Of a DNA stretch of 23,528 nt, positions 3,371 through 17,131 are shown one piece after another. Position 1 is the first letter of the stretch; every line of letters begins with the position of its first letter. Source of the DNA: Myxococcota bacterium (GTDB taxonomy: Bacteria; Myxococcota_A; Bradymonadia; UBA4248; JAVFAO01); assembly GCA_034002465.1 (NCBI GenBank), contig JAVFAO010000065.1:1-23528 (forward strand), in the 5' to 3' direction. The notes beneath the pieces were generated by a model. That model had not been told where the DNA came from. It saw only the letters and a list, made by a program, of their open reading frames with translations, and searched no databases. Position numbers and translations under genes: made by a program.

Positions 3371-4588
3371 TCAGCCCGATTCCGAGGAGCTCCGCGTCGT
3401 CTCGTGCACGCCGACACAGCAGTTTCGGCCGCGGCTCTTCGCCACATAGAGGGCACGATCTGCCAAGCTGAACAACGAACCGCGACCCAGCGACTGGGTG
3501 GTCGACACGGCCACCCCGACGCTGACCGTCACCTCGCCAGCGCCGAGGCCCCCCAGGCTCGCGAACTCCACCGATTCCCGCAGCTTCTCTGAGACGCGCA
3601 TGGCCTCGTCCTGGCTGACGCCGCCAGTGAGGATGACCACGAATTCCTCGCCGCCATAGCGAGCGATGAGGTCCTCTGCGCGCAGCTTGCTGCGCAGCAG
3701 GGTGGCGATGTCCTTGAGAACGGCGTCGCCACACTCATGCCCGAAGCGATCGTTGATCGCCTTGAAGTGGTCGATGTCCAAGACCAGCATCGCCAACGGC
3801 CGTCCTGTGCGGCTGGCCCAGTGCATCTCCTGCTCGAGCCGCTGCTCGTAATGACGGCGATTGAAAACCCCGGTCAGACCATCCACCGAGGCCATCTCCG
3901 CGAGTCGCATGTGGAGCTGGGCCTTCTCGATGGCGATGGCGGCGAGGTTGGCGAGGGTGGAGAGGGCGCGTTGGTCGTTGGCGTTGATGGGGCGCTGGTT
4001 GTAGGCGTTGTCGACCAGGACCACTCCCAACATGCTCTCCTGCAGCGCGATGGGGACCAGCGCGAAAGGAGAGAAACGCAGCCACTCACCGGATGTGGTT
4101 TGATAGGCAGCGACGTGATCATTGCTGACGAGCATCTCCCGCTTGGCAGCACAACGCGCCACCACATGGACCAAGGGGAGCTCGTGCTGGCTCCAATCCA
4201 GCTCTGGCGCTGCAGCTTCGATGTGGATCGAGACGTCCGAGAGCGCGCGCGTCAGGGCTTGGGCGCGCGGATCCTGCGCTGCACCATAGGAGTCGATCAA
4301 GCTCTGCAGATCGAGACCGATATCCTCGATGGCTTCCCAGATGCGGTGCGCCTCCTCTTCGTTGGCCGGCCCGATGGCTGAGGACGTGCGCAGCTCGCTG
4401 CGACGTTCACGGGTGAGGAAGAGCACCGCTCGGTTGAAATTCAGACCGTCGCCGTGAGTGATCCCCGACATGATGATGTGGAGGATCTGGTCCAGGTCCA
4501 GAGCAGCAAGCATACCGCGGGTAACCGTGAGCTGGAACTTCAGCTCCTTGAGGAGCACGCTATCTTGGGGTGCGAGGTGCTCATTCAT
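3371..4588 (-). CDS. GAF-domain diguanylate cyclase (GGDEF output, GGEEF active site with RxxD I-site).
   Basis: ORF 3371..4753. Start chosen at the ATG at 4588 (MNEHLAPQD), which overlaps the stop of the upstream PAS gene as ATGAATGA. RYGGEEF active site with RAED five residues upstream (I-site). The N-terminal ~250 aa are GAF-like. TGA stop at 3373-3371. Confidence 0.8.
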   Translation of the reverse strand: MNEHLAPQDSVLLKELKFQLTVTRGMLAALDLDQILHIIMSGITHGDGLNFNRAVLFLTRERRSELRTSSAIGPANEEEAHRIWEAIEDIGLDLQSLIDSYGAAQDPRAQALTRALSDVSIHIEAAAPELDWSQHELPLVHVVARCAAKREMLVSNDHVAAYQTTSGEWLRFSPFALVPIALQESMLGVVLVDNAYNQRPINANDQRALSTLANLAAIAIEKAQLHMRLAEMASVDGLTGVFNRRHYEQRLEQEMHWASRTGRPLAMLVLDIDHFKAINDRFGHECGDAVLKDIATLLRSKLRAEDLIARYGGEEFVVILTGGVSQDEAMRVSEKLRESVEFASLGGLGAGEVTVSVGVAVSTTQSLGRGSLFSLADRALYVAKSRGRNCCVGVHETTRSSSESG

Positions 4589-5780
4589 GCGAATCGTCCC
4601 GCGGTGGTGGCTTCGCCGGGTTCTCAGGCGGAGAAACACTTGCGTCCGAAGCATCAGCCCTTGCTCGAGCCAGTCGAGCTGCGGCTGGCGCGCCATGTCG
4701 TTGGGCCATGACCTGCTCACTGACCCGACGTGCACAGTCTGGGCAGATGCCATGCGAGAAATCTGCGTCGGAGTGCTCGCTGATGTAGACTTCGAGCTGC
4801 TTCCAATACCCTTGGTCGTCCCTGATCATTTTGCAATTCGCACAGATCGGGAGCAATCCGGTGAGCGTCTTCACCTGCGTCGCCGCAGCCCTCAGCTCTC
4901 GAATCAAGGCTTCTCGCTCCTCCTCAGCGCGTTTGCGTTCGCTCACATCGAGACCGATGGCCCAGCTACGCCAGCCGGGCACGCTGTGTGTGCGTGAGAC
5001 GATGGACCAGGCCACGATCCGCCTGCTCCCGTCCTTGCAGCTGATCTCTGTCTCCATGTCGATGACTTCCCCACGCATGGCATCCCAGAGCTCACTCAGC
5101 CGAATCCGATACTGGGTATCGGGATAGAGCAGCTCCAGGAGATCGGTGCGTCCCAGCATCTCTGAGGCGGCATAGCCGGTGACCCGCACGCACTCCTGGT
5201 TCCACAGCACGATGCGCCCCATTTCATCGACGGCATTGAGCAGCACTGGCATGTGCTGGACCACGAGCTGAAGACGCCTTTCACTACACAGCAGAGCAAG
5301 CTCGGCGGCTTTGCGCTCGGTGAAGTCTTCGACCAAGGCTTGAACATGGCTGACCTCGCCCTGCGCATCGAAGACTGGAGTCATATGGTAGCGAAAGTGA
5401 GCGGTCTTCCCCCATTTCGTGGTATACAGAGCATCACCAACGACCGCTCGACGCTGTGCGAAGCAAGTGCGAAAATGCTCACTGATCCCAGAGCGCTTGA
5501 GGGGCTCGAAGGTGAACATGTTGATTTGCTGTGTATCCTGGGCAGACGGCGAGCCGAGCAGACGCAGCACCATGGCATTGGTGCTCGTGATGCGGCCGTC
5601 GTTGGAGACCTCCAGCACCCCCAAGGGAGCACTCTCAACGAGCTCCCGATAGCGGGCAAGGTGCTGACGTTCGTCACGAAGCTGAGCTTGAGCCAAGGCG
5701 AGTTCGCCTTCGAGTCTGAGCACCCGCTCGGATTCATCTCCAGTGCGAGACTCTTCTGACTCGTGAGGGGTCTTGCTCAT
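4581..5780 (-). CDS. Tandem PAS/PAC sensor protein with a C-terminal Cys/His (CxxC...HGICPxC) zinc-ribbon-like module and no recognisable kinase or other output domain.
   Basis: ATG at 5780, TGA at 4583-4581. N-terminal coiled coil followed by two PAS-like segments. C-terminus LLPICANCKMIRDDQGYWKQLEVYISEHSDADFSHGICPDCARR. Translationally coupled to the downstream GGDEF gene. Confidence 0.8.
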   Translation of the reverse strand: MSKTPHESEESRTGDESERVLRLEGELALAQAQLRDERQHLARYRELVESAPLGVLEVSNDGRITSTNAMVLRLLGSPSAQDTQQINMFTFEPLKRSGISEHFRTCFAQRRAVVGDALYTTKWGKTAHFRYHMTPVFDAQGEVSHVQALVEDFTERKAAELALLCSERRLQLVVQHMPVLLNAVDEMGRIVLWNQECVRVTGYAASEMLGRTDLLELLYPDTQYRIRLSELWDAMRGEVIDMETEISCKDGSRRIVAWSIVSRTHSVPGWRSWAIGLDVSERKRAEEEREALIRELRAAATQVKTLTGLLPICANCKMIRDDQGYWKQLEVYISEHSDADFSHGICPDCARRVSEQVMAQRHGAPAAARLARARADASDASVSPPENPAKPPPRDDSHE

Positions 5781-5804: not shown

Positions 5805-5866
5805 CTGAGTTTTTGTCGATGGGGCGCTTGGCCCGGTTCCCCAAGTTTTTGTCGATGGGGCGGGTA
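5805..5866 (-). repeat. Family A short dispersed repeat, about 1.5 tandem units, in inverse orientation relative to the other copies.
   Basis: Reverse complement reads ...CCCATCGACAAAAACTTGGGGAACCGGGCCAAGCGCCCCATCGACAAAAACTC. This matches the 36-bp unit AAGTTGGGGGAACAGGCCAAGCGCCCAATGGACAAG found at 8751, 11449, 17084 and 20163. Confidence 0.7.
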
Positions 5867-6187: not shown

Positions 6188-6391
6188 TCAGCTCTCGCTA
6201 TCCTCGGGCTCGCTGCCGTGTTCTTCGCTGTCGAGCTCATCGAGCGCTGCACAGTGCCGATCGATGTGTTCCAAGGAGCATTGTAAGCTGATGCAAGCCT
6301 CTCGGAGGCGTTGCAGGCTGTCCTCGAGACCGAACTTCGCGGCCTGGAGCTGTGTCGCCAGCTCCACGAGCTTGGGATCGGAGAGGCTCAT
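6188..6391 (-). CDS. Small acidic hypothetical protein (67 aa), last gene of the mfd / SurA-like cluster.
   Basis: ATG at 6391 lies 3 nt after the TGA of the upstream PPIase gene (TGAaacATG). High GC3, acidic C-terminal tail (DELDSEEHGSEPEDSES), no recognisable domain. Confidence 0.45.
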   Translation of the reverse strand: MSLSDPKLVELATQLQAAKFGLEDSLQRLREACISLQCSLEHIDRHCAALDELDSEEHGSEPEDSES

Positions 6392-6394
6392 GTT

Positions 6395-7498
6395 TCAGCG
6401 GGCCTGCTGTGCTTCGGCGCTACGTTTCTGGGCCGTTTCGGCAATGTCCACATTGAGTCGTCGCTTGACGAAGCGACGCTTGGCCAGGTTCGAGATCCAG
6501 GTCTCAATCAGCTTCTGACCTTCGAGGTTGATCAGCTCGGCTCGGCACTCCTCCATGGTCTGTTGCCAGCTCTCGCTGCTGCTCTGAGAACGTCCATCGA
6601 CGCGGAGGATGTGGAACCCCTTCTCGGTCTCGATGATATCGCTGAGCTCGCCAACTTCCAACTCGAATACAGGGCCAAACTCGGCGCTCAGATCCGATCG
6701 CGTAAAACTGCCAAGTTGTCCGCGTCGTTTGGCCGACATGCCGGCAGAGAACTGCTCTGCAACGTCCTCGAAAGCCAGACCCTCCACGCGAACCATCTGA
6801 TAGAGTTGACGTGCCGCGGCATAGCGCACGGCGTCAACCGCCTCCCACCACGCCGGATAGAGCTTGGCCCAGGACGATTCCTGGCCGAGCTGAGCGTCCA
6901 GGGCTTCAGCGGTGACCACAATCTGGCTCAGCTCGAACTTCTCTGTACTCTGCCCCTCGGGCTGCTTCTCCCTCGCACAGGCTTCGACGTCGGGGGTCGA
7001 AACATCAACCTGTCCGCCAAGCTCGGTGCGCACCACGAACTGCGAGCGGAGCTCGTCCCGCAGGAAGCGCCGGAACGCATCCCAAGGAATGCCCTGCGCT
7101 CCCATCAGCGCCCTGTACTGCTGTTCAGTCTGACGGGTGCGTTGGTAGAGCATCTCGAGGCGCTGGTCGACCTCAGCATCGCCAACAGGAGCCTGCAGCT
7201 TGGCTGCCTCCGCGGACAAGAGACGGGTCTGGATCAGACGCTCGAGCAGCATCTCCAAAACCTGCGCTCGGTCGGCTGCGCCGTCCAGCGCTTCGACTCG
7301 CTGATTGGCGCTGGCGAGTCGAATACGGGCGTCGATGCGCAGGTCGTTGAACGTCACCACCTCGTCTTCGATGATGGCCACCACCCTATCCAGGGTTTCG
7401 GCACGAGCATCGGGGACACAGACGAGCAAGACGAAGAGCGAAAGCAAGCCGCTTGCTGTGGCAAGACCGGGAGTGCGGGGGCACGAAACTGCTGCCAT
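6395..7498 (-). CDS. SurA-family periplasmic chaperone / parvulin-type peptidyl-prolyl cis-trans isomerase.
   Basis: Signal peptide (LLSLFVLLVCVPDARA). SurA-N-like LDRVVAIIEDEVVTFNDL. Parvulin domain AEQFSAGMSAKRRGQLGSFTRSDLSAEFGPVFELEVGELSDIIETEKGFHILRV. ATG at 7498. Confidence 0.8.
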   Translation of the reverse strand: MAAVSCPRTPGLATASGLLSLFVLLVCVPDARAETLDRVVAIIEDEVVTFNDLRIDARIRLASANQRVEALDGAADRAQVLEMLLERLIQTRLLSAEAAKLQAPVGDAEVDQRLEMLYQRTRQTEQQYRALMGAQGIPWDAFRRFLRDELRSQFVVRTELGGQVDVSTPDVEACAREKQPEGQSTEKFELSQIVVTAEALDAQLGQESSWAKLYPAWWEAVDAVRYAAARQLYQMVRVEGLAFEDVAEQFSAGMSAKRRGQLGSFTRSDLSAEFGPVFELEVGELSDIIETEKGFHILRVDGRSQSSSESWQQTMEECRAELINLEGQKLIETWISNLAKRRFVKRRLNVDIAETAQKRSAEAQQAR

Positions 7499-7519
7499 GA
7501 AGAACTCGCAGAAGGACCG

Positions 7520-8491
7520 TCAAGGTCGGGTAGAGCCAGAGATGGCGTCAGAGAGCGAAGGCTCGAGAATCTCAACCCGAGCCGTCGCCATCACCTCGGC
7601 GACGTGAGCTTGCCAGGCGCGCGCTGCCGCGGCCTCGAGCGCGTCGTTCGCCAAGATCACACGAAGCTCGCTGGCTGGCAAGGGCTTGGCGGCGATTCGC
7701 TCGCGCACGTTCACCAGATAACAGCAGGACTGAGGCAGCGAAAGCAGCGCTCTCAGCCCAAGACCCGCCTCGGCAAAGAGGGCATCCGCCACCGCGTCAT
7801 CCAGCGCGCCCCGCGCCTCAGCGCGAGAAAATGGGCCCAAGCTCGCCTGGTTGGGCGACTCCTCGGTGTAGCTGCGCGCAAGCTCGAGGAAGAGCGCATC
7901 GGGGTTACCCGAGGGGTGCCACAAACTGGCGCCGCGCAGCATCGCAAAGGCCGTCATCAAGCGGCGCGCTCGCTGTGGGCTGCGGGTGAACAGAAGATCG
8001 ACGGTCAGTTGCTCGGGACTCTGCCAACGCTCTGGCTCGGCGCGCAGCGCCGCCTCGACGTCTTCGGGCGTCGGCGGCGCCACCTGTTGCGCTGTCTCTT
8101 GCCCGAGCTCCTGGCGGCGCTGCTCAATCATCTGCTCGCGGGTGTGGAGCTGTACCCACGCATCTTGCTGGAGACCCTGCTCGACCGCCATCTGTCTCAG
8201 CAACACGAAATTGATCATTTCACCGAAAATGCGCATGTAGCCCGTCTGCCCTTGCACCGCCTCGCGCAGGTAGCTGGGCATGGACGTGATGGTCGCCTCG
8301 AAGCGCGCGACGCTTATGCCCTCTCCATTGATTCGGCCGAGCACCCGCGACGCGCTCTGCTCGCGCTCGCGTTGCTCCACCTCTTCCTGTCGCTCGGCTT
8401 TCGAGCATCCCCAGGTCAAACTGAGCAAAAGCGGGACGAGCAGCGCGAGCTGCAAGGCCTTCCTGAGACTCCTCTTGATGACCCATGTCAT
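7520..8491 (-). CDS. SurA N-terminal-domain-like lipoprotein chaperone (PpiD/SurA_N family).
   Basis: ORF 7520..8530. I prefer the ATG at 8491 (MTWVIKRSLRKALQLALLVPLLLSLTWGC, lipobox), which has GGAG 9 nt upstream. SurA_N-like segment RINGEGISVARFEATI...NFVLLRQMAVEQGL. Confidence 0.7.
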   Translation of the reverse strand: MTWVIKRSLRKALQLALLVPLLLSLTWGCSKAERQEEVEQREREQSASRVLGRINGEGISVARFEATITSMPSYLREAVQGQTGYMRIFGEMINFVLLRQMAVEQGLQQDAWVQLHTREQMIEQRRQELGQETAQQVAPPTPEDVEAALRAEPERWQSPEQLTVDLLFTRSPQRARRLMTAFAMLRGASLWHPSGNPDALFLELARSYTEESPNQASLGPFSRAEARGALDDAVADALFAEAGLGLRALLSLPQSCCYLVNVRERIAAKPLPASELRVILANDALEAAAARAWQAHVAEVMATARVEILEPSLSDAISGSTRP

Positions 8492-8585
8492 GACACGAGC
8501 TCCAGCGTTCGTCGGCTGGTGGTTTTGCACACGCCCCGGAGTCCTACACTCCCAAAGGAGCGCAACGGCGTCTCAGTGGCGTCGG

Positions 8586-8635
8586 CAACAATCCGATTTC
8601 AAAGGGATTCCAACGGGCATCGCCCGAGGCGTGGC
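8586..8635 (+). repeat. Family C repeat copy C1 (CAACAAxxxGAxxTCAAAGGGATTCCAA-GGGC-loop-GCCC).
   Basis: caacaatccgatttcaaagggattccaacgggcatcgcccgaggcgtgg. Near-identical core at 13703 and 17003. GGGCatcGCCC forms a hairpin. Confidence 0.6.
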
Positions 8636-8685
8636 AGAGCTCATCAGTAGCATTCGTTCGCTCTCGGGCACCAAGCTCTCGACAG

Positions 8686-8749
8686 CCGCAATTCCGACGG
8701 AATGTCAAGAAGATGCGTGCCCTTCGCGCACTTTCGATCGGATTCAAGT
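8686..8749 (+). repeat. Family B hairpin repeat copy B1.
   Basis: ctctcgacagccgcaattccgacggaatgtcaagaagatgcgtgcccttcgcgcactttcgatcggattcaag. A second copy at 22586 is about 80% identical. Internal ATTCC/GGAAT stem and outer CTCTCGAC/GTCAAGAG imperfect stem. Confidence 0.65.
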
Positions 8750-8750
8750 A

Positions 8751-8787
8751 GGGAAAACAGGCCAAGCGCCCAATGGACAAGAAGTTG
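8751..8787 (+). repeat. Family A repeat copy A2 (single unit), immediately 3' of B1 and 18 nt downstream of the mfd stop.
   Basis: gggaaaacaggccaagcgcccaatggacaagaagttg. Confidence 0.7.
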
Positions 8788-8805
8788 CTGAACCCCTCCA
8801 TCCAT

Positions 8806-11800
8806 CTAGCGGCAGCATGAGGCGAGCTCTCGCAAGTAGGCCTTGCAGGTAGCGACCAAAGCCGCCGCTTCGCTCGGGCGCAGGTAGCGCACGAGGCGCA
8901 GATCCTGACGGAGAACATAGCGTTTTGGCTCGGCGAGCACCAGGGATACCACCCGATTCGGGTCGAGACCGCTGTTCTCGCCGATGTTGATGGTGATCGC
9001 GGTGTTGTTGGCGTCCACCCCCATGACGCCGAGTGCGCGTAGCAAGAGCTTGACCTCGAAAAGCTCACGCAGCCCCAGCAGCTCTCGGGGTGCCGCGCCG
9101 AAGCGGTCGACGATCTCTCCGAAGATACGATAGAGCTCGTCGATATCTGCTGCCGCCGAGAGACGTTTGTACAGCATCAGCCGGAGCTGCACGTCCGGGA
9201 CATAGTCGTCGGGCAGATAGGCCTCGATGGGGAGGTTCACCTCGGGTTCGACCCGCGACTCCAGCGGCTTGCCAGAGAGCTCGGCGATGGCCTCATCCAG
9301 CAACTCCGTATACATGTCCAGGCCCACGGTCATGATGCTGCCGTGCTGCTCGGCACCGAGCAGGTTGCCTGCCCCTCGCAGCTCCAAATCGAGCTGGGCT
9401 ATCTGAACGCCGCTACCGAGCTCGGTGAAGCGGGTGATGGCATCGAGACGGTCGTGCGCGGCCTCGCTGAGCTTCTCATCTGCAGGGATCATCAAGTAAC
9501 AATGCGCCCTCTGGCTCGAACGCCCCACACGCCCACGCAACTGGTACAACTGCGCCAGACCCAGAGTGTCCGCGCGGCTGACAATCAGGCAATTGGCGTT
9601 GGGGATGTCCAGGCCACTCTCGATGATCGTCGTGCACACCAGTACATCCGTTTCGCCACGGATGAAATCGAACATCACGTTCTCGAGCTTGCGCTCGTCC
9701 ATCTGCCCATGGGCCACAGCGATCCGGGCCTTCGGACAGAGGCTGGCCAGCTGCGTGGCACACTGCTCGATGGTCTGGACACGGTTGTGCAGATAGAACA
9801 CCTGGCCACCGCGAGCGAGCTCCTGCTCGATGGCGTCGCGGATGGCGCCGTCGGTTTGTCTCGCCAGGTAGGTGCGCACCGCCAGACGATCGTCGGGCGG
9901 CGTCGCGATCACCGACAGATCACGAAGCCCCATCATGCTCATCTGCAGGGTGCGCGGGATCGGCGTTGCCGTCATTGACAGCACATCCAGTGGCGTATTC
10001 CCATCAATCTGCTGGGCGAGTACTTTGATCTTCTCCTTATGGGCCACCCCAAAGCGATGCTCCTCATCGATGATGAGCAGCCCCAGCGACCGGAACTTCA
10101 GATCGGACGAGAGCAGTCGGTGGGTTCCAATGAGCACGTCCACGCTGCCCTGGCTCACTCCCTGCAGAATGGCCTTGGTTTCTGCGGCTTTGCGGAAGCG
10201 GCTCAGCGACTCGACGCGCACCGGGTAGTTGGCGAAGCGGTTGCGGAAGGTGGCAGCGTGCTGCTCCGCGAGGATCGTGGTGGGGACCAGCACCACGACC
10301 TGCTTTCCGTCAAGCACCGCGCGGAAGGCGGCGCGTACCGCCACCTCGGTCTTGCCAAAGCCAACATCGCCGCAGACCAAGCGGTCCATCGGCCGCGCTT
10401 TGGCCATGTCCTCGAGCACCGCGTCGATGGCGGCGGCCTGATCGACCGTTTCGTTGAACGGGAAGGAGCTTTCGAAGTCTCGGAAATACTCGTCTCTGGT
10501 GGAGAAGGCAAAGCCTGGACGAGCCGCCCGCTCGGCATAGAGTGAGAGCAGGTCGATGGCCAGGGCCTTGACGCTCTCGCGGACCTTGGCTTTGCTCCGC
10601 TCCCAGGCGGTGCTGCCCAGGCGATCGATGCGCGTGGGCTGCTCTCCGCCTGCGAACTTCTGTACGCTTCCCAGCCGGTGAACCGGGACATAGAGCTTGT
10701 CCTCGTCGGCGTAGCGCAGCAACAGAAAGTCGCCACGGATGCCACCCACCTCGAGGTTGAAGAGCCCTTCGTAGCGGCCAATGCCGTGCTCGCCGTGCAC
10801 CAGGAAATCCCCCGGTCGCAGCTCGCGGAACGAGAGCAGGGCGCGCTCGGTACTCGCGCTCTTGGCGCTGCTCTGTCGCGTTTTGCGCGCGCCAAAGAGC
10901 TCTTGGTCGCTGATGATGGCCAGGCCCAGCGCAGGAAAGCGTTCTCCGCTCGTGAGTTTGGCGCGGAGGAGCTGCACCTCCTTGGCAGGAGGCTGGCTCG
11001 GCGCGATGAGGCGTGCGGGAAGCCCGCTCTGCATGGCCGCGGGGATGCCGTGTAGGGGTAGCTGCTCGAGCAGGCGCTCGGCGCGTCCGCTGCTGCTGCA
11101 GGCAATCGCGATGGTCCCGTAGACCTCTGCGAATTGCTTCAGCTTCTCGGCGAAGGCAGGAATCACCTTGTCTGGGCCGAGGCGCTGCCTGAGCGCGCTC
11201 AGATCATGGTTCCCGAGGCTGTCGAAGCGTAGCGGGGTGTCGCTCTCGAGCCTGCTGCACAGCCGTGGTAGAGGGCCAATGGCATCCGCCCACTGGGCGG
11301 GGCGCAGATAGAGCTCCTCTGGTGGGAAGGCGAGCAGCTCCGAGGCGAGCCGCTGTTGGTATTGCTCCTGGGCGCGGTCGAAGAGCTGCGTTTGGGCGTG
11401 CTGGATGGCGTCCTCGTCGACGAGCATCAGCAGACGTCCATCCATGAACTTGGGGGAACAGGCCAAGCGCCCAATCGACAAAAACTCGAGCGGGGTTTCC
11501 AGGTGCTCGAAGAAGGCGGGCATCAGCGCTTCGATGCCGAGGAAATGGCGGCCGTGGCCAAGCTCGGTGAGCACTTTGCGCAGGGATTTGGTGGGGAAGT
11601 CGAGTTGGTCACCAAGCTCTCGCAGCCGATTCCTTGCGACGAGCAGCGATTGCTCGTCGAGGATTTCCTCTCGAACAGGGCAAATGTAGAGGCCGCTCAG
11701 CGTGCTGGTCCCGCGCTGGGTGTCAGGGTCGAAGTGGCGTAAGGTCTCAACCTCGTCGCCATCGAGTTCGATGCGCACAGGCTGGGCATAGACGGGGCTG

Positions 11801-12528
11801 AAGACGTCGACGACACCCCCTCGTACGGCAAAAGTGCCAGGATCTTCAACGGATTGCACAGGGGCGTAGCCGCAGCTCAAGAGCCGCGTGCGCAGCTTCG
11901 TCAGGTCCACCTCGTCACCTGTGCCCAAGATCAGGCTGAGCGCGTCCAGGCTCTGCCGCGGTGGGCAGCGTCGGCACAGCGCTTCGACCGAGGTGATGAG
12001 CAGCGGTGGCGCTTCTCCGAGGTGCAGGAGAAAGAGTGCGGCGAGGCGCGCAGCGACCGTCCGTCGGTTTGGTGCGATGCCGCTGTAGGGGCTCTGATCC
12101 ACCGACGGCAGGAGCATGCAGTTCGCTTCACCCGCGAAGAAGCTGCACTGCTCGAGAAGCTCTTCTGCCTTGCTGCTGCTCGAGGTGACGAGAACCACCG
12201 AGCGCTGCCGCGAGCTGACCAGCTCGCTGGCGAGCAGCGCGCAGCTCAGTGGGCTCGCTCGCATGACCTGGCGCGGTGGTGCAAGGCCGTCCCAGCCATC
12301 GACCAGCGCGGCCCAATCGAAGCACGAGGCGGCCGCAGCACGCTCCAGCTCGCTGCCTACTGACTCGGGCTGCGCGGTGTGGACCTGCTCTTGGGGTTCC
12401 TCTTCGAAGCCTACGAGCAGGCCGTCTTCGTCGACCTCGAGCTCGCTCTGCTCGTCTTCGATTTCGTCAAAGAATGCAGGGTCTTCGATGTGTTGGACTG
12501 GTTCTGGGGCAGGGTGACGTACGTTCAT
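8806..12528 (-). CDS. mfd: Transcription-repair coupling factor Mfd.
   Basis: 1240-aa ORF. Mfd hallmarks: CGDVGFGKTEVAVRAAF (Walker A), LLIIDEEHRFGV (DEEH box), TATPIPRTL, QLRGRVGRS, TRG-like VGLDMYTELL, and UvrB-homology N-terminal modules. ATG at 12528 but no clear SD. The first ~70-88 aa are acidic and unlike the E. coli Mfd N-terminus as I recall it, so the true start may be internal (e.g. the ATG at 12264). Confidence 0.9.
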   Translation of the reverse strand: MNVRHPAPEPVQHIEDPAFFDEIEDEQSELEVDEDGLLVGFEEEPQEQVHTAQPESVGSELERAAAASCFDWAALVDGWDGLAPPRQVMRASPLSCALLASELVSSRQRSVVLVTSSSSKAEELLEQCSFFAGEANCMLLPSVDQSPYSGIAPNRRTVAARLAALFLLHLGEAPPLLITSVEALCRRCPPRQSLDALSLILGTGDEVDLTKLRTRLLSCGYAPVQSVEDPGTFAVRGGVVDVFSPVYAQPVRIELDGDEVETLRHFDPDTQRGTSTLSGLYICPVREEILDEQSLLVARNRLRELGDQLDFPTKSLRKVLTELGHGRHFLGIEALMPAFFEHLETPLEFLSIGRLACSPKFMDGRLLMLVDEDAIQHAQTQLFDRAQEQYQQRLASELLAFPPEELYLRPAQWADAIGPLPRLCSRLESDTPLRFDSLGNHDLSALRQRLGPDKVIPAFAEKLKQFAEVYGTIAIACSSSGRAERLLEQLPLHGIPAAMQSGLPARLIAPSQPPAKEVQLLRAKLTSGERFPALGLAIISDQELFGARKTRQSSAKSASTERALLSFRELRPGDFLVHGEHGIGRYEGLFNLEVGGIRGDFLLLRYADEDKLYVPVHRLGSVQKFAGGEQPTRIDRLGSTAWERSKAKVRESVKALAIDLLSLYAERAARPGFAFSTRDEYFRDFESSFPFNETVDQAAAIDAVLEDMAKARPMDRLVCGDVGFGKTEVAVRAAFRAVLDGKQVVVLVPTTILAEQHAATFRNRFANYPVRVESLSRFRKAAETKAILQGVSQGSVDVLIGTHRLLSSDLKFRSLGLLIIDEEHRFGVAHKEKIKVLAQQIDGNTPLDVLSMTATPIPRTLQMSMMGLRDLSVIATPPDDRLAVRTYLARQTDGAIRDAIEQELARGGQVFYLHNRVQTIEQCATQLASLCPKARIAVAHGQMDERKLENVMFDFIRGETDVLVCTTIIESGLDIPNANCLIVSRADTLGLAQLYQLRGRVGRSSQRAHCYLMIPADEKLSEAAHDRLDAITRFTELGSGVQIAQLDLELRGAGNLLGAEQHGSIMTVGLDMYTELLDEAIAELSGKPLESRVEPEVNLPIEAYLPDDYVPDVQLRLMLYKRLSAAADIDELYRIFGEIVDRFGAAPRELLGLRELFEVKLLLRALGVMGVDANNTAITINIGENSGLDPNRVVSLVLAEPKRYVLRQDLRLVRYLRPSEAAALVATCKAYLRELASCCR
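11449..11486 (+). repeat. Family A repeat unit embedded in frame inside the mfd coding sequence.
   Basis: cttgggggaacaggccaagcgcccaatcgacaaaaact. On the mfd (minus) strand it encodes ...PLEFLSIGRLACSPK... The same peptide motif LSIGR(L/S)ACSP is what the tandem array at 20163-20312 encodes on its minus strand. Confidence 0.7.
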
Positions 12529-13640: not shown

Positions 13641-13702
13641 GGGTCAAGGCTTGGACTGCGAAAGTGGAGGAGCTGGCTGTGTTCGCCCATCGATGCGAAG
13701 AA

Positions 13703-13742
13703 AAAAAGAGGGATTCCAGAGGGCTAGCCCTCCGATGGGTGT
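13703..13742 (+). repeat. Family C repeat copy C2.
   Basis: aaaaagagggattccagagggctagccctccgatgggtg. GGGCTAGCCC is a perfect palindrome. Compare C1 and C3. Confidence 0.55.
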
Positions 13743-16768: not shown

Positions 16769-16967
16769 GGCCTTCGCTCAGTCTCGCAAGCCGACCCTGC
16801 GCCTGCAGATCCTCGCGATTACTCAGAGGGCTTTCGATTCCTTGGCGTTCGCGCTTGCAAGCAGAATGCGCCTGCTCTATGAATGATGGCGCGTGATCGA
16901 ATGCCTCGTCGAGGGGATGCAGCAGCCACCTGCGTGTCCGCTCCCTCGACGCGCACGAGCCAAGGGG

Positions 16968-17042
16968 TGAAACAGGCCGAGCCCAATCAGCAACAAATTG
17001 AAATCAAAGGGATTCCAAGGGCGAAGCCCTTTGGCGGGGCGA
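16968..17042 (+). repeat. Degenerate family A unit fused to family C copy C3.
   Basis: aacaggccgagcccaatcagcaacaaattg (A-like), then aaatcaaagggattccaagggcgaagccctttggcgggg (C, with GGGCgaaGCCC hairpin). Confidence 0.55.
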
Positions 17043-17083
17043 GGGGCAGAGCCCCGCAATCGTATTCACATTCAACAGGTCAT

Positions 17084-17131
17084 GGGACTAGGCCAAGCGC
17101 CCAATCGACAAGAAAATCAGACGACTAGGCC
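17084..17131 (+). repeat. Family A repeat copy A4 (about 1.3 units), 40 nt upstream of the MVP start.
   Basis: gggactaggccaagcgcccaatcgacaagaaaatcagacgactaggcc. Confidence 0.6.

What the first reader, a model, noticed from the sequence alone, without database searches (positions are those of the whole stretch)
11449..11486. 36-bp dispersed repeat unit inserted in frame inside mfd
Within the mfd CDS there is a segment that is near-identical at nucleotide level to the family A unit found intergenically at 5805, 8751, 17084 and 20163. On the mfd strand it encodes PLEFLSIGRLACSPK, the same peptide the tandem array encodes on its minus strand. Compared with E. coli Mfd as I recall it (FF..SEPLPPLFSYFPANTLLV), this inter-domain linker is about 12 aa longer here, which is exactly one 36-bp unit. 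The unit has no stop codon in any of its six frames. This is the behaviour described for Rickettsia palindromic elements and similar MITE-like repeats that colonise coding sequence without disrupting it.
Basis: partly seen in the sequence, partly recalled or inferred. Interest (0 to 1): 0.8.

Follow-up and report, generated by a model that had tools for sequence, protein, structure and literature searches.

The report
Short dispersed repeat inserted in mfd
A copy of a 36-base repeat that is scattered through this uncultured myxobacterium's genome sits in frame inside the DNA-repair gene mfd, adding 11-12 amino acids to a floppy surface loop; this echoes known cases such as the Rickettsia repeats, but the element is much smaller and not palindromic.

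Summary
Window 11446-11487 (+ strand, antisense to mfd at 8806-12528) is a full single copy of a 36-nt repeat family. Other copies lie at 5807-5862, 8742-8790, 16961-16999, 17073-17117 and in a 4.2-unit tandem array at 20161-20313. The mfd copy is 30-39/42 identical to 13 other copies; chance expectation is 0.

It is read through in frame as EFLSIGRLACSPKF. None of 74 Mfd homologues, nor E. coli Mfd, has residues there. The net gain is 11 residues against the closest orthologues, not exactly 12. An AlphaFold model places it in the only low-confidence internal loop, inside D1b of the UvrB-homology module, not in an inter-domain linker.

The family is genome-wide in this MAG: repeat arrays are translated in about 35 spurious ORFs on more than 20 contigs. 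It also occurs in two other metagenomes, is copy-number variable, and is strongly intergenic.

It is not a palindromic element. Single units fold no better than shuffles, there are no terminal inverted repeats or inverted doublets, and multi-copy loci are direct tandem arrays. Lacking stops in all six frames is unremarkable here (26% of 36-mers).

Best reading: a passenger insertion of a small minisatellite-like dispersed repeat. It behaves like RPEs but is not one. Its mobilisation mechanism is unknown.

The parts
11446..11487 (+). Single copy (about 1.15 units, 42 nt) of the 36-nt repeat, lying antisense inside mfd. It is translated on the minus strand as EFLSIGRLACSPKF (Mfd residues 348-361).
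   Evidence: (nhmmer E = 6.7e-14)
8806..12528 (-). mfd (transcription-repair coupling factor), an intact 1240-aa ORF with all Mfd domains.
   Evidence: E = 5.5e-233 to E. coli Mfd 6x26/2eyq
5807..5862 (-). About 1.5 units of the repeat in reverse orientation, intergenic, 27 nt upstream of the ATG of the PAS-domain gene 4581-5780(-). Its 3' end (ATCGACAAAAACTC) is the same as that of the mfd copy.
   Evidence: (I2: 41 nt, 90%)
8742..8790 (+). About 1.25 units, intergenic between the convergent genes 6311-8650(+) and mfd; it lies 16-64 nt beyond the mfd stop codon.
16961..16999 (+). Degenerate copy with a 2-nt deletion, intergenic.
   Evidence: weak nhmmer hit at 16969-16988, plus reading of the sequence
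17073..17117 (+). Single copy, intergenic, about 55 nt upstream of the ATG of gene 17171-20005. A decayed partial unit follows, to about 17140.
20161..20313 (+). Tandem array of 4.2 units of 36 nt, intergenic between 17171-20005(+) and 20572-21300(+). It is annotated in GenBank as a hypothetical protein (P0134), which is most likely spurious.

Best explanation
**What it is.** The segment is a passenger DNA insertion. One complete single-unit copy of a lineage-specific 36-nt repeat has become part of mfd. The family consensus is TTGGGGGAACAGGCCAAGCGCCCAATSGACAAGAAG.

**The family.** It exists as dispersed single units of about 41-42 nt and as head-to-tail arrays of 2 to 9 or more units. It is spread across the whole genome of this Myxococcota MAG, almost always between genes. 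Array copy number differs between assemblies, so it behaves like a dispersed minisatellite.

**Why the mfd copy survives.** The net length change is a multiple of three (+11 to +12 codons). That copy has no stop codon in the frame used. It also landed in a length-variable, disordered surface loop of domain D1b in the UvrB-homology module. All catalytic and interaction motifs of Mfd are untouched.

**What is shown and what is inferred.**
- Shown: the nucleotide identity, the absence from orthologues, the loop location, the genome-wide abundance and the intergenic bias.
- Inferred: the peptide (FLSIGRLACSPKF) has no function of its own.
- Unknown: how the unit spreads. Units are not palindromic and lack terminal inverted repeats, so hairpin- or TIR-dependent transposition (REP/RAYT, MITE, RPE) is unlikely.
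- My best guess: a sequence-specific trans-acting enzyme that recognises the invariant 25-nt core (AGGCCAAGCGCCCAAT-S-GACAAGAA), or microhomology- or template-switch-mediated copying. Arrays would then expand and contract by slippage.
For: Identity with the family:
- 6 core matches against 0 expected.
- nhmmer E = 6.7e-14 for the mfd copy.
- Its mean identity to 13 other copies is 35.2/42, against 33.8/42 among the others, so it is not decayed.

Insertion, not ancestry:
- 24/24 and 74/74 homologues lack it.
- E. coli Mfd has an 11-residue gap there.
- 77 kb around the mfd genes of the two closest relatives holds no copy.

Tolerated site:
- In the AF2 model (pLDDT 89.4) the only internal stretch below pLDDT 50 is residues 354-362, which is the insert.
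- The model matches Mfd N-terminal structures 3hjh, 2eyq and 2b2n.
- The loop varies by up to 5 residues among orthologues.
- The mfd ORF and its invariant motifs are intact.

Genome-wide non-coding family:
- 27 hits to a six-frame translation of the unit, 17 of them with RBU37 locus tags (the same MAG). They lie on more than 20 contigs, and the reading frame switches inside arrays.
- 8 more array ORFs were found.
- Further copies are on L005, L006 and L011-L014.
- 5 of 6 window loci lie in the 11.3% of the window that is intergenic, P about 1e-4.

Copy-number variation: P0126 (3+2 units) and P0154 (1+1 units) appear to be the same locus.
Against: - No empty-site allele or close relative (more than 54% identity) is available, so the junctions, any target-site duplication and the age of the insertion cannot be fixed.
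- The net gain (11 codons against the nearest orthologues) does not equal the 36-nt unit or the 42-nt repeat-like stretch. The event therefore involved either a slightly shorter ancestral loop or loss of a few target bases.
- Raw reads could not be inspected, so an assembly error is not formally excluded.
- The rest of the MAG could not be read as DNA, so there is no census of CDS copies and no candidate mobilising enzyme.
- The invariant 25-nt core and its frequent position just upstream of gene starts could mean the element has a cis-acting function, which a pure 'passenger' view ignores.
Confidence: 0.78

Rival explanations
1. It is a true MITE/RPE/REP-type element. On this view a palindromic or TIR-bearing non-autonomous transposon is mobilised in trans by an IS or RAYT transposase, and it inserts in frame as Rickettsia palindromic elements do.
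For: - The behaviour matches: a dispersed, mostly intergenic repeat with an in-frame copy in a housekeeping gene that orthologues lack (RPE description in PMC10969869).
- A weak TTGGG...CCCAA complementarity exists inside the unit, and the 4-unit array folds well, z = -4.8.
- AACT occurs at both edges of the mfd copy.
Against: - Single copies fold no better than shuffles, z = -0.46, -0.35, +1.23, +0.46, -0.56.
- The left arm of the putative stem is the least conserved part of the unit.
- There are no terminal inverted repeats and no inverted doublets. Every multi-copy locus is a direct tandem array.
- The unit is 36 nt, against about 100-150 nt for RPEs.
- The 'AACT' repeat is simply the periodic unit running 1.15 times, as in other single copies.
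- No transposase lies in the 42 kb examined.
Confidence: 0.08
2. The unit is a functional cis-element, such as a protein-binding site or an RNA leader motif. On this view the copy in mfd, or the peptide it encodes, has been recruited for regulation (for example antisense or internal transcription) or for a new Mfd property.
For: - A 25-nt non-palindromic core is nearly invariant across 14 copies.
- Several copies sit within about 20-60 nt of start codons (5807-5862, 17073, L006, L011).
- GGAAC-N16-CGAC inside the unit loosely resembles an ECF-sigma promoter (my reading of the sequence, not tested).
Against: - The putative -35 and -10 positions are the variable ones, while the 'spacer' is the conserved part.
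- Arrays of up to 9 units and copy-number variation do not fit a regulatory site.
- Orientation relative to the downstream gene is not consistent: L011, L013 and L014 are reversed.
- The sigma-70 and terminator scans are at background level.
- There is no Rfam match, even at E up to 1.
- No + strand gene lies downstream of the mfd copy within mfd.
Confidence: 0.08
3. It is an assembly or binning artefact: a repeat k-mer was spliced into the mfd contig.
For: The window is a short-read MAG contig, and repeats of this family break contigs elsewhere. P0138 and P0128 are partial ORFs that end inside arrays.
Against: - Both flanks continue the same mfd reading frame and align to orthologues without any other disturbance.
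- A mis-join would link two different loci rather than add 33-36 nt in frame.
- The copy has its own private substitutions, so it is not a copy-paste of another locus.
Confidence: 0.04
4. The mfd loop is ancestral, and the repeat family derives from it or resembles it by convergence.
For: None beyond the shared sequence.
Against: - The segment is absent from all 74 homologues.
- The family has dozens of loci and a diverged subfamily in another metagenome.
- 39/42 nucleotide identity cannot be convergence.
Confidence: 0.01

Closest known systems
Rickettsia palindromic elements (RPE)
   Same: Both are dispersed non-coding repeats with copies inserted in frame in unrelated housekeeping genes. The copies add a peptide that orthologues lack, at sites compatible with the protein fold (PMC10969869).
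   Different: RPEs are about 100-150 bp, palindromic, and encode a conserved peptide of 30-50 aa. They are described as dispersed single elements rather than head-to-tail arrays (my knowledge), and nearly half of them are intragenic. Here the unit is 36 nt, is not palindromic, forms tandem arrays, and only 1-2 of 14 loci are intragenic.
Bacterial MITEs (e.g. Coxiella QMITE1/2, Correia, ERIC)
   Same: Both are small non-autonomous repeats, mostly intergenic. Some copies overlap or extend ORFs in frame (PMC5896051).
   Different: MITEs have terminal inverted repeats and target-site duplications and are usually 100-400 bp. None of these features is present here.
REP / REPIN-RAYT systems
   Same: The unit size is similar (20-40 nt), both are extragenic and abundant, and REPs occasionally form higher-order arrays (PMC3116915).
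   Different: REPs are imperfect palindromes organised as inverted doublets that form hairpins, with a RAYT gene nearby. Here there are direct head-to-tail repeats, no hairpin signal and no RAYT in the DNA held.
Mycobacterial interspersed repetitive units (MIRU-VNTR); comparison from my own knowledge of Supply et al. 1997/2000
   Same: Both have minisatellite-like units of tens of bp, dispersed at many intergenic loci as direct tandem arrays. Copy number varies between strains, and units can be read as small ORFs.
   Different: MIRUs are 46-100 bp and sit between genes of operons. A single unit inside a conserved housekeeping enzyme is not a described feature. There is no sequence similarity.
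Very small mobile dispersed repeats of cyanobacteria (SDR; Elhai et al. 2008, from my own knowledge)
   Same: Both are elements of only a few tens of nt that appear as precise insertions in genes and in other repeats without destroying them.
   Different: They come from a different phylum and have different sequences. SDRs are described as having small inverted termini or hairpins. I could not test membership.

Membership tests
Rickettsia palindromic element-like (RPE-like) in-frame repeats | Dispersed repeat with a copy inside a CDS, in frame, absent from orthologues | tested here: met
Rickettsia palindromic element-like (RPE-like) in-frame repeats | Palindromic sequence able to form a stable hairpin | tested here: not met
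   Single copies fold at z = -0.46 to +1.23 relative to shuffles
Rickettsia palindromic element-like (RPE-like) in-frame repeats | Size about 100-150 bp; a high proportion of copies are intragenic | tested here: not met
   The unit is 36 nt. Of 14 loci in 42 kb, 1-2 are intragenic, and 5 of 6 window loci are intergenic.
MITE | Terminal inverted repeats | tested here: not met
   No inverted arms within copies; I also read the 14 aligned copies directly.
MITE | Target-site duplications of variable sequence flanking each copy | tested here: inconclusive
   Both edges of the mfd copy carry AACT, but this is part of the periodic unit and is seen at other copies too. No empty site is available.
MITE | A related autonomous IS with matching ends in the same genome | not testable with these tools
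   The rest of the MAG could not be retrieved as DNA.
REP/REPIN-RAYT | Imperfect palindrome; inverted doublets (REPINs) | tested here: not met
   only direct tandem arrangements were found.
REP/REPIN-RAYT | RAYT (IS200/IS605-like Y1 transposase) gene flanked by the repeats | not testable with these tools
   None in the window or loci, but only about 42 kb of the genome was seen.
Dispersed minisatellite (MIRU-like) | Direct tandem arrays of a unit of tens of bp at many dispersed intergenic loci | tested here: met
   intergenic bias
Dispersed minisatellite (MIRU-like) | Copy number varies between strains at a given locus | tested here: inconclusive
   P0126 (3+2 units) and P0154 (1+1 units) share the inter-array spacer sequence. 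This is protein-level evidence for one locus only.
Mfd / transcription-repair coupling factor (the host gene) | UvrB-interaction domain, CarD/TRCF RID, DEAD and Helicase_C motor, and TRCF C-terminal domain, in that order | tested here: met
   Pfam hits are all above gathering scores; E = 5.5e-233 to E. coli Mfd structures.

The most novel reading that the evidence does not exclude
The 36-nt unit could be a new kind of very small mobile DNA. On this reading it is non-palindromic, lacks TIRs, and is copied to new sites through recognition of its invariant 25-nt core by a dedicated, still unidentified enzyme or by a template-switching route. It would then be able both to seed minisatellite arrays and to write 11-12-residue loops into conserved proteins. 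That would make it one of the smallest self-propagating units known in bacteria and a tractable natural system for loop insertion in proteins.
Probability: 0.2. Interest if true: 0.7.

Novelty: new variant of a known kind. Interest (0 to 1): 0.45.

Why it matters
In-frame colonisation of genes by short repeats has been documented mainly in reduced intracellular genomes such as Rickettsia and Coxiella, and for palindromic elements.

This case shows the same outcome in a large, free-living, high-G+C Myxococcota genome, with a much smaller, non-palindromic, array-forming unit. If the family proves mobile, its mechanism cannot be the hairpin- or TIR-based ones known so far.

There are two practical points:
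- The arrays are annotated as dozens of spurious 'hypothetical proteins' and break MAG contigs. Recognising the family would improve annotation of this lineage.
- The Mfd insert marks a D1b loop that appears to tolerate 11-12 extra residues.

Tried and rejected
1. Scan of genome contigs for the core pattern. It returned only chance matches in unrelated genomes: L001-L004, of which L002 was read and lies in a CDS with unrelated flanks.

2. The metagenome scan returned only two small contigs. The window's own contig was not returned, so that collection does not hold this MAG.

3. The look-up of encoding contigs could not reach this MAG's proteins. A DNA-level genome census was therefore impossible.

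4. Peptide searches for single-unit insertions in other proteins:
   - The six-frame tandem query detects only stretches of about two or more units.
   - An X-padded version found no candidate at all, not even Mfd itself. That is a technical failure, not evidence of absence.
   - The profile search of representatives kept all 33 columns, so it again recovered only arrays. P0155-P0157 in that list are unrelated repeats.

5. I considered a promoter or terminator role. The consensus scans are at background level, and the conservation pattern is the wrong way round for an ECF-type promoter.

6. Rfam gave nothing at gathering threshold or at E up to 1. Viral contigs, phage and plasmid collections gave nothing.

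7. I suspected an orientation rule (unit co-directional with the downstream gene) from the window copies, then dropped it after seeing L011, L013 and L014.

8. I considered a 4-nt target-site duplication (AACT) and then downgraded it. It is part of the unit's own periodicity, and the net gain against the nearest orthologues is 33 nt, not 36.
Full report
**1. What is in the sequence**

The window is a complete 23,528-nt contig of an uncultured 'Myxococcota bacterium' MAG; its Mfd protein, P0001, is on record from NCBI and JGI. The ORF at 8806-12528 on the minus strand encodes a 1240-aa protein with the full Mfd domain set: UvrB_inter, CarD_TRCF_RID, DEAD, Helicase_C and TRCF. It matches E. coli Mfd structures at E = 5.5e-233.

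Inside this ORF, window 11446-11487 reads on the + strand GAACTTGGGGGAACAGGCCAAGCGCCCAATCGACAAAAACTC.

- Tandem Repeats Finder reports a 36-nt period, 4.2 copies, at 20161-20312, with consensus CAAGAAGTTGGGAGAACAGGCCAAGCGCCCAATGGA.
- A 29-nt core of that unit matches six times in the window with 3 or fewer mismatches, including 11450-11478. The shuffle expectation is 0.00.
- The repeat finder and an nhmmer profile add 17073-17117, a reverse-oriented 1.5-unit copy at 5807-5862, and a degenerate copy near 16961-16999.

**2. The copy is translated, and it is an insertion**

On the mfd strand the 42 nt read EFLSIGRLACSPKF, residues 348-361. The array's minus strand encodes NFLSIGRLACSPNF in the same frame.

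- In an alignment of the 24 best Mfd homologues, every one has a gap of 8-12 columns at this spot; most show 11.
- In a 75-sequence alignment, none of 74 homologues has a residue opposite query positions 354-359.
- HMMER aligns E. coli Mfd with an 11-residue gap between S275 and Y276.
- Between two conserved anchors (GIEAL ... FPP) the query has 72 residues. The three closest orthologues and the mode have 61, and the range is 60-65.

The gain is thus 11 residues against the nearest relatives and 12 only against the shortest. The repeat-like stretch is 42 nt, which is the usual span of single copies elsewhere: about 1.15 units, ending ...AAGTC.

The closest orthologue is only 54% identical, and no insert-free allele is available. 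The exact junctions, and whether the AACT found at both edges is a target duplication or just the unit's own periodicity, cannot be settled.

The mfd copy is as close to the family as any intergenic copy. Its mean identity to 13 others is 35.2/42, against 33.8/42 among the others, and it is 39/42 to the L006 copy. It is not an old relic, and it cannot be convergence.

**3. Where it sits in the protein**

I modelled Mfd residues 85-520 with a 75-sequence alignment.

- Mean pLDDT is 89.4 and pTM is 0.86.
- The only internal stretch with pLDDT below 50 is model residues 270-278, which are protein residues 354-362, inside the insert. It lies between a short helix and a beta strand.
- The model superposes on the E. 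coli Mfd N-terminal structures 3hjh, 2eyq and 2b2n, with Foldseek E = 1e-21 to 1e-25.

The site is about 64 residues past the UvrB-interaction domain D2 (Pfam match at 201-286) and opposite E. coli residue 275. [quoted passage not shown] 2006). It is a loop inside a domain, not an inter-domain linker. Orthologues already vary by up to five residues there. All invariant Mfd columns are conserved in this protein, so nothing suggests a pseudogene.

**4. What the repeat family is**

I could not retrieve the rest of the MAG as DNA. As a substitute, I searched the protein database with a six-frame translation of the tandem unit.

- The search returned 27 'hypothetical proteins'. Seventeen carry RBU37_ locus tags of this same MAG; the rest are from JGI (9) and ENA (1). 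Together they lie on more than 20 different contigs.
- Their sequences are runs of the unit's peptides, up to 9 units. Several switch between the three frames of a strand within one array. Unit length therefore varies by plus or minus 1 nt, and the arrays are non-coding.
- A profile search of 1.84 billion representative proteins added eight more array ORFs.
- Copies also occur on two other contigs of JGI metagenome Ga0116164 (L005, L006).
- There are further copies on an ENA contig of what looks like the same species (L011) and in JGI metagenome 3300044603. One array there, on L012, is a diverged subfamily that keeps the 36-nt period.
- P0126 (3+2 units) and P0154 (1+1 units) share the sequence between their two arrays. 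They look like one locus with different copy numbers.
- The 77 kb around the mfd genes of the two closest relatives holds no copy. Viral contigs, phage and plasmid collections have none, and Rfam has no match.

Within the window, five of six loci fall in the 11.3% of DNA that is intergenic (binomial P about 1e-4).

**5. What it is not**

Single copies fold no better than dinucleotide shuffles as RNA, with z from -0.46 to +1.23. Only the 4-unit array folds well, which is trivially explained by the short TTGGG/CCCAA complementarity repeated four times.

The left arm of that putative stem is the least conserved part of the unit. The invariant part is a non-palindromic 25-nt core, AGGCCAAGCGCCCAAT-S-GACAAGAA. 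There are no terminal inverted repeats and no inverted doublets, and every multi-copy locus is head-to-tail.

The defining structural features of RPEs, MITEs and REP/REPINs, as described in PMC10969869, PMC5896051 and PMC3116915, are therefore tested and not met. The behaviour is RPE-like. The anatomy is closer to a dispersed minisatellite such as MIRU (my knowledge).

It carries no weight, however: 26% of 36-mers from this 62% G+C window share the property, and the copies at 8760 and 17091 do contain stops.

**6. Does it colonise coding sequence in general?**

In the 42 kb of DNA I hold that carries the family, I count 14 loci. One is clearly intragenic (mfd). One is probably intragenic: in L006 the unit follows the fourth codon of a ParB-like ORF whose upstream ATG has a GGAGG 9 nt before it, giving MNEN-LGEQAKRPIDKK-SAMQ.... 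I could not check that ORF's homologues.

Several database ORFs run into or out of arrays at their ends (P0138, P0121, P0147, P0154). These look like gene-calling extensions rather than internal insertions. No multi-unit insertion inside a domain-bearing protein was found. Single-unit insertions in other proteins were beyond the sensitivity of the searches available.

**7. Mechanism and rivals**

The best-supported account is a passenger insertion (confidence 0.78). One unit of a selfish or neutral DNA repeat was copied into mfd. It was retained because the change kept the frame, introduced no stop, and fell in a tolerant surface loop.

How units reach new sites is unknown. The absence of hairpins and TIRs argues against RAYT- or IS-type mobilisation. 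A core-recognising enzyme or a microhomology or template-switch route is my inference. Arrays would then grow and shrink by slippage.

The rivals are:
- a genuine MITE/RPE-type element (0.08);
- a functional cis-element or exapted peptide (0.08). The core is suspiciously invariant and often near start codons, but orientation is inconsistent, consensus promoter and terminator scans are at background, and the variable positions are the ones a promoter would need;
- an assembly artefact (0.04), unlikely because both flanks continue the same gene in frame and the copy has private substitutions;
- an ancestral loop as the source of the family (0.01), which is refuted by the orthologues.

**8. Verdict**

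The labels 'palindromic', 'MITE-like' and 'linker' do not hold, nor does the weight placed on stop-free frames.

This is a new variant of a known phenomenon, not a new category. It is unusually small, non-palindromic and array-forming, and it occurs in a free-living Myxococcota genome. Interest is moderate (0.45). It would rise if a whole-genome census showed many in-frame copies or a novel mobilisation mechanism.

Noticed in passing
window 17171-20005 (+): A 944-aa protein with Major Vault Protein domains (MVP_shoulder E = 1e-18, Vault_3, Vault_4). This is a bacterial homologue of the eukaryotic vault shell protein, flanked on both sides by copies of the 36-nt repeat.
   Followed up: no
window 8595-8635, 13700-13735, 17000-17040: A second small repeat family: AAAGGGATTCCA followed by a short G+C-rich hairpin (GGGC-N3-5-GCCC), at three intergenic sites. 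At 8582 and 16987 it is preceded by a decayed tail of the 36-nt unit (TCRGCAACAA...). The same juxtaposition is translated in P0139 from another contig (GLALWNPF...FLSIGRPGCSP), so the two families may form a composite element.
   Followed up: partly
window 8644-8733 and 22555-22644: A 90-nt direct repeat, 79% identical, lies in two gene-end regions. The first copy starts at the stop codon of gene 6311-8650. The second overlaps the annotated 5' end of the short-chain dehydrogenase ORF 21653-22642, whose Pfam domain starts only at residue 67. Its function is unknown.
   Followed up: no
L006 1938-1979 (-): One unit sits immediately after the fourth codon of a ParB-like ORF (HTH_ParB, ParB_N). 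A GGAGG lies 9 nt upstream of that ATG, and a second in-frame ATG follows 18 codons later. This is possibly a second in-frame CDS insertion, in the forward frame (LGEQAKRPIDKK).
   Followed up: partly
P0126 vs P0154 (database proteins, no DNA available): These appear to be the same locus in two assemblies, with 3+2 and 1+1 units around an identical spacer. In P0154 the second unit abuts what looks like a lipoprotein signal peptide (IVALSLVLAGC), so the unit may supply its start region.
   Followed up: no
L012 10343-10483: A diverged subfamily of the repeat (forward unit CTTGGGGGAACTGGCCAAGCGACCAATCGACGAAAA, 3.9 units, period still 36) lies in JGI metagenome 3300044603. Contigs from that same metagenome (L013, L014) carry units almost identical to the window's.
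   Followed up: partly
window 8806-12528 (-), Mfd residues 1-90 and about 838-845: Compared with E. coli, this Mfd also has an acidic N-terminal extension of about 70 residues and a 6-residue insertion (QIDGNTPL region) in the first motor domain. Neither resembles the repeat.
   Followed up: no
window 20110-20454 (+) and about 35 database ORFs: Arrays of the unit are annotated as 'hypothetical proteins' (for example P0134 = RBU37_07880 in this window). Several contigs of the MAG end inside arrays (partial ORFs P0128, P0138). The family therefore both inflates the gene count and fragments the assembly.
   Followed up: partly
window 8758-8772 (-): The copy just beyond the mfd stop codon has an altered left arm. 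On the mfd strand this creates a weak stem followed by TTTTCCC, which the scan picks up as terminator-like. The total number of such hits is at background level.
   Followed up: no
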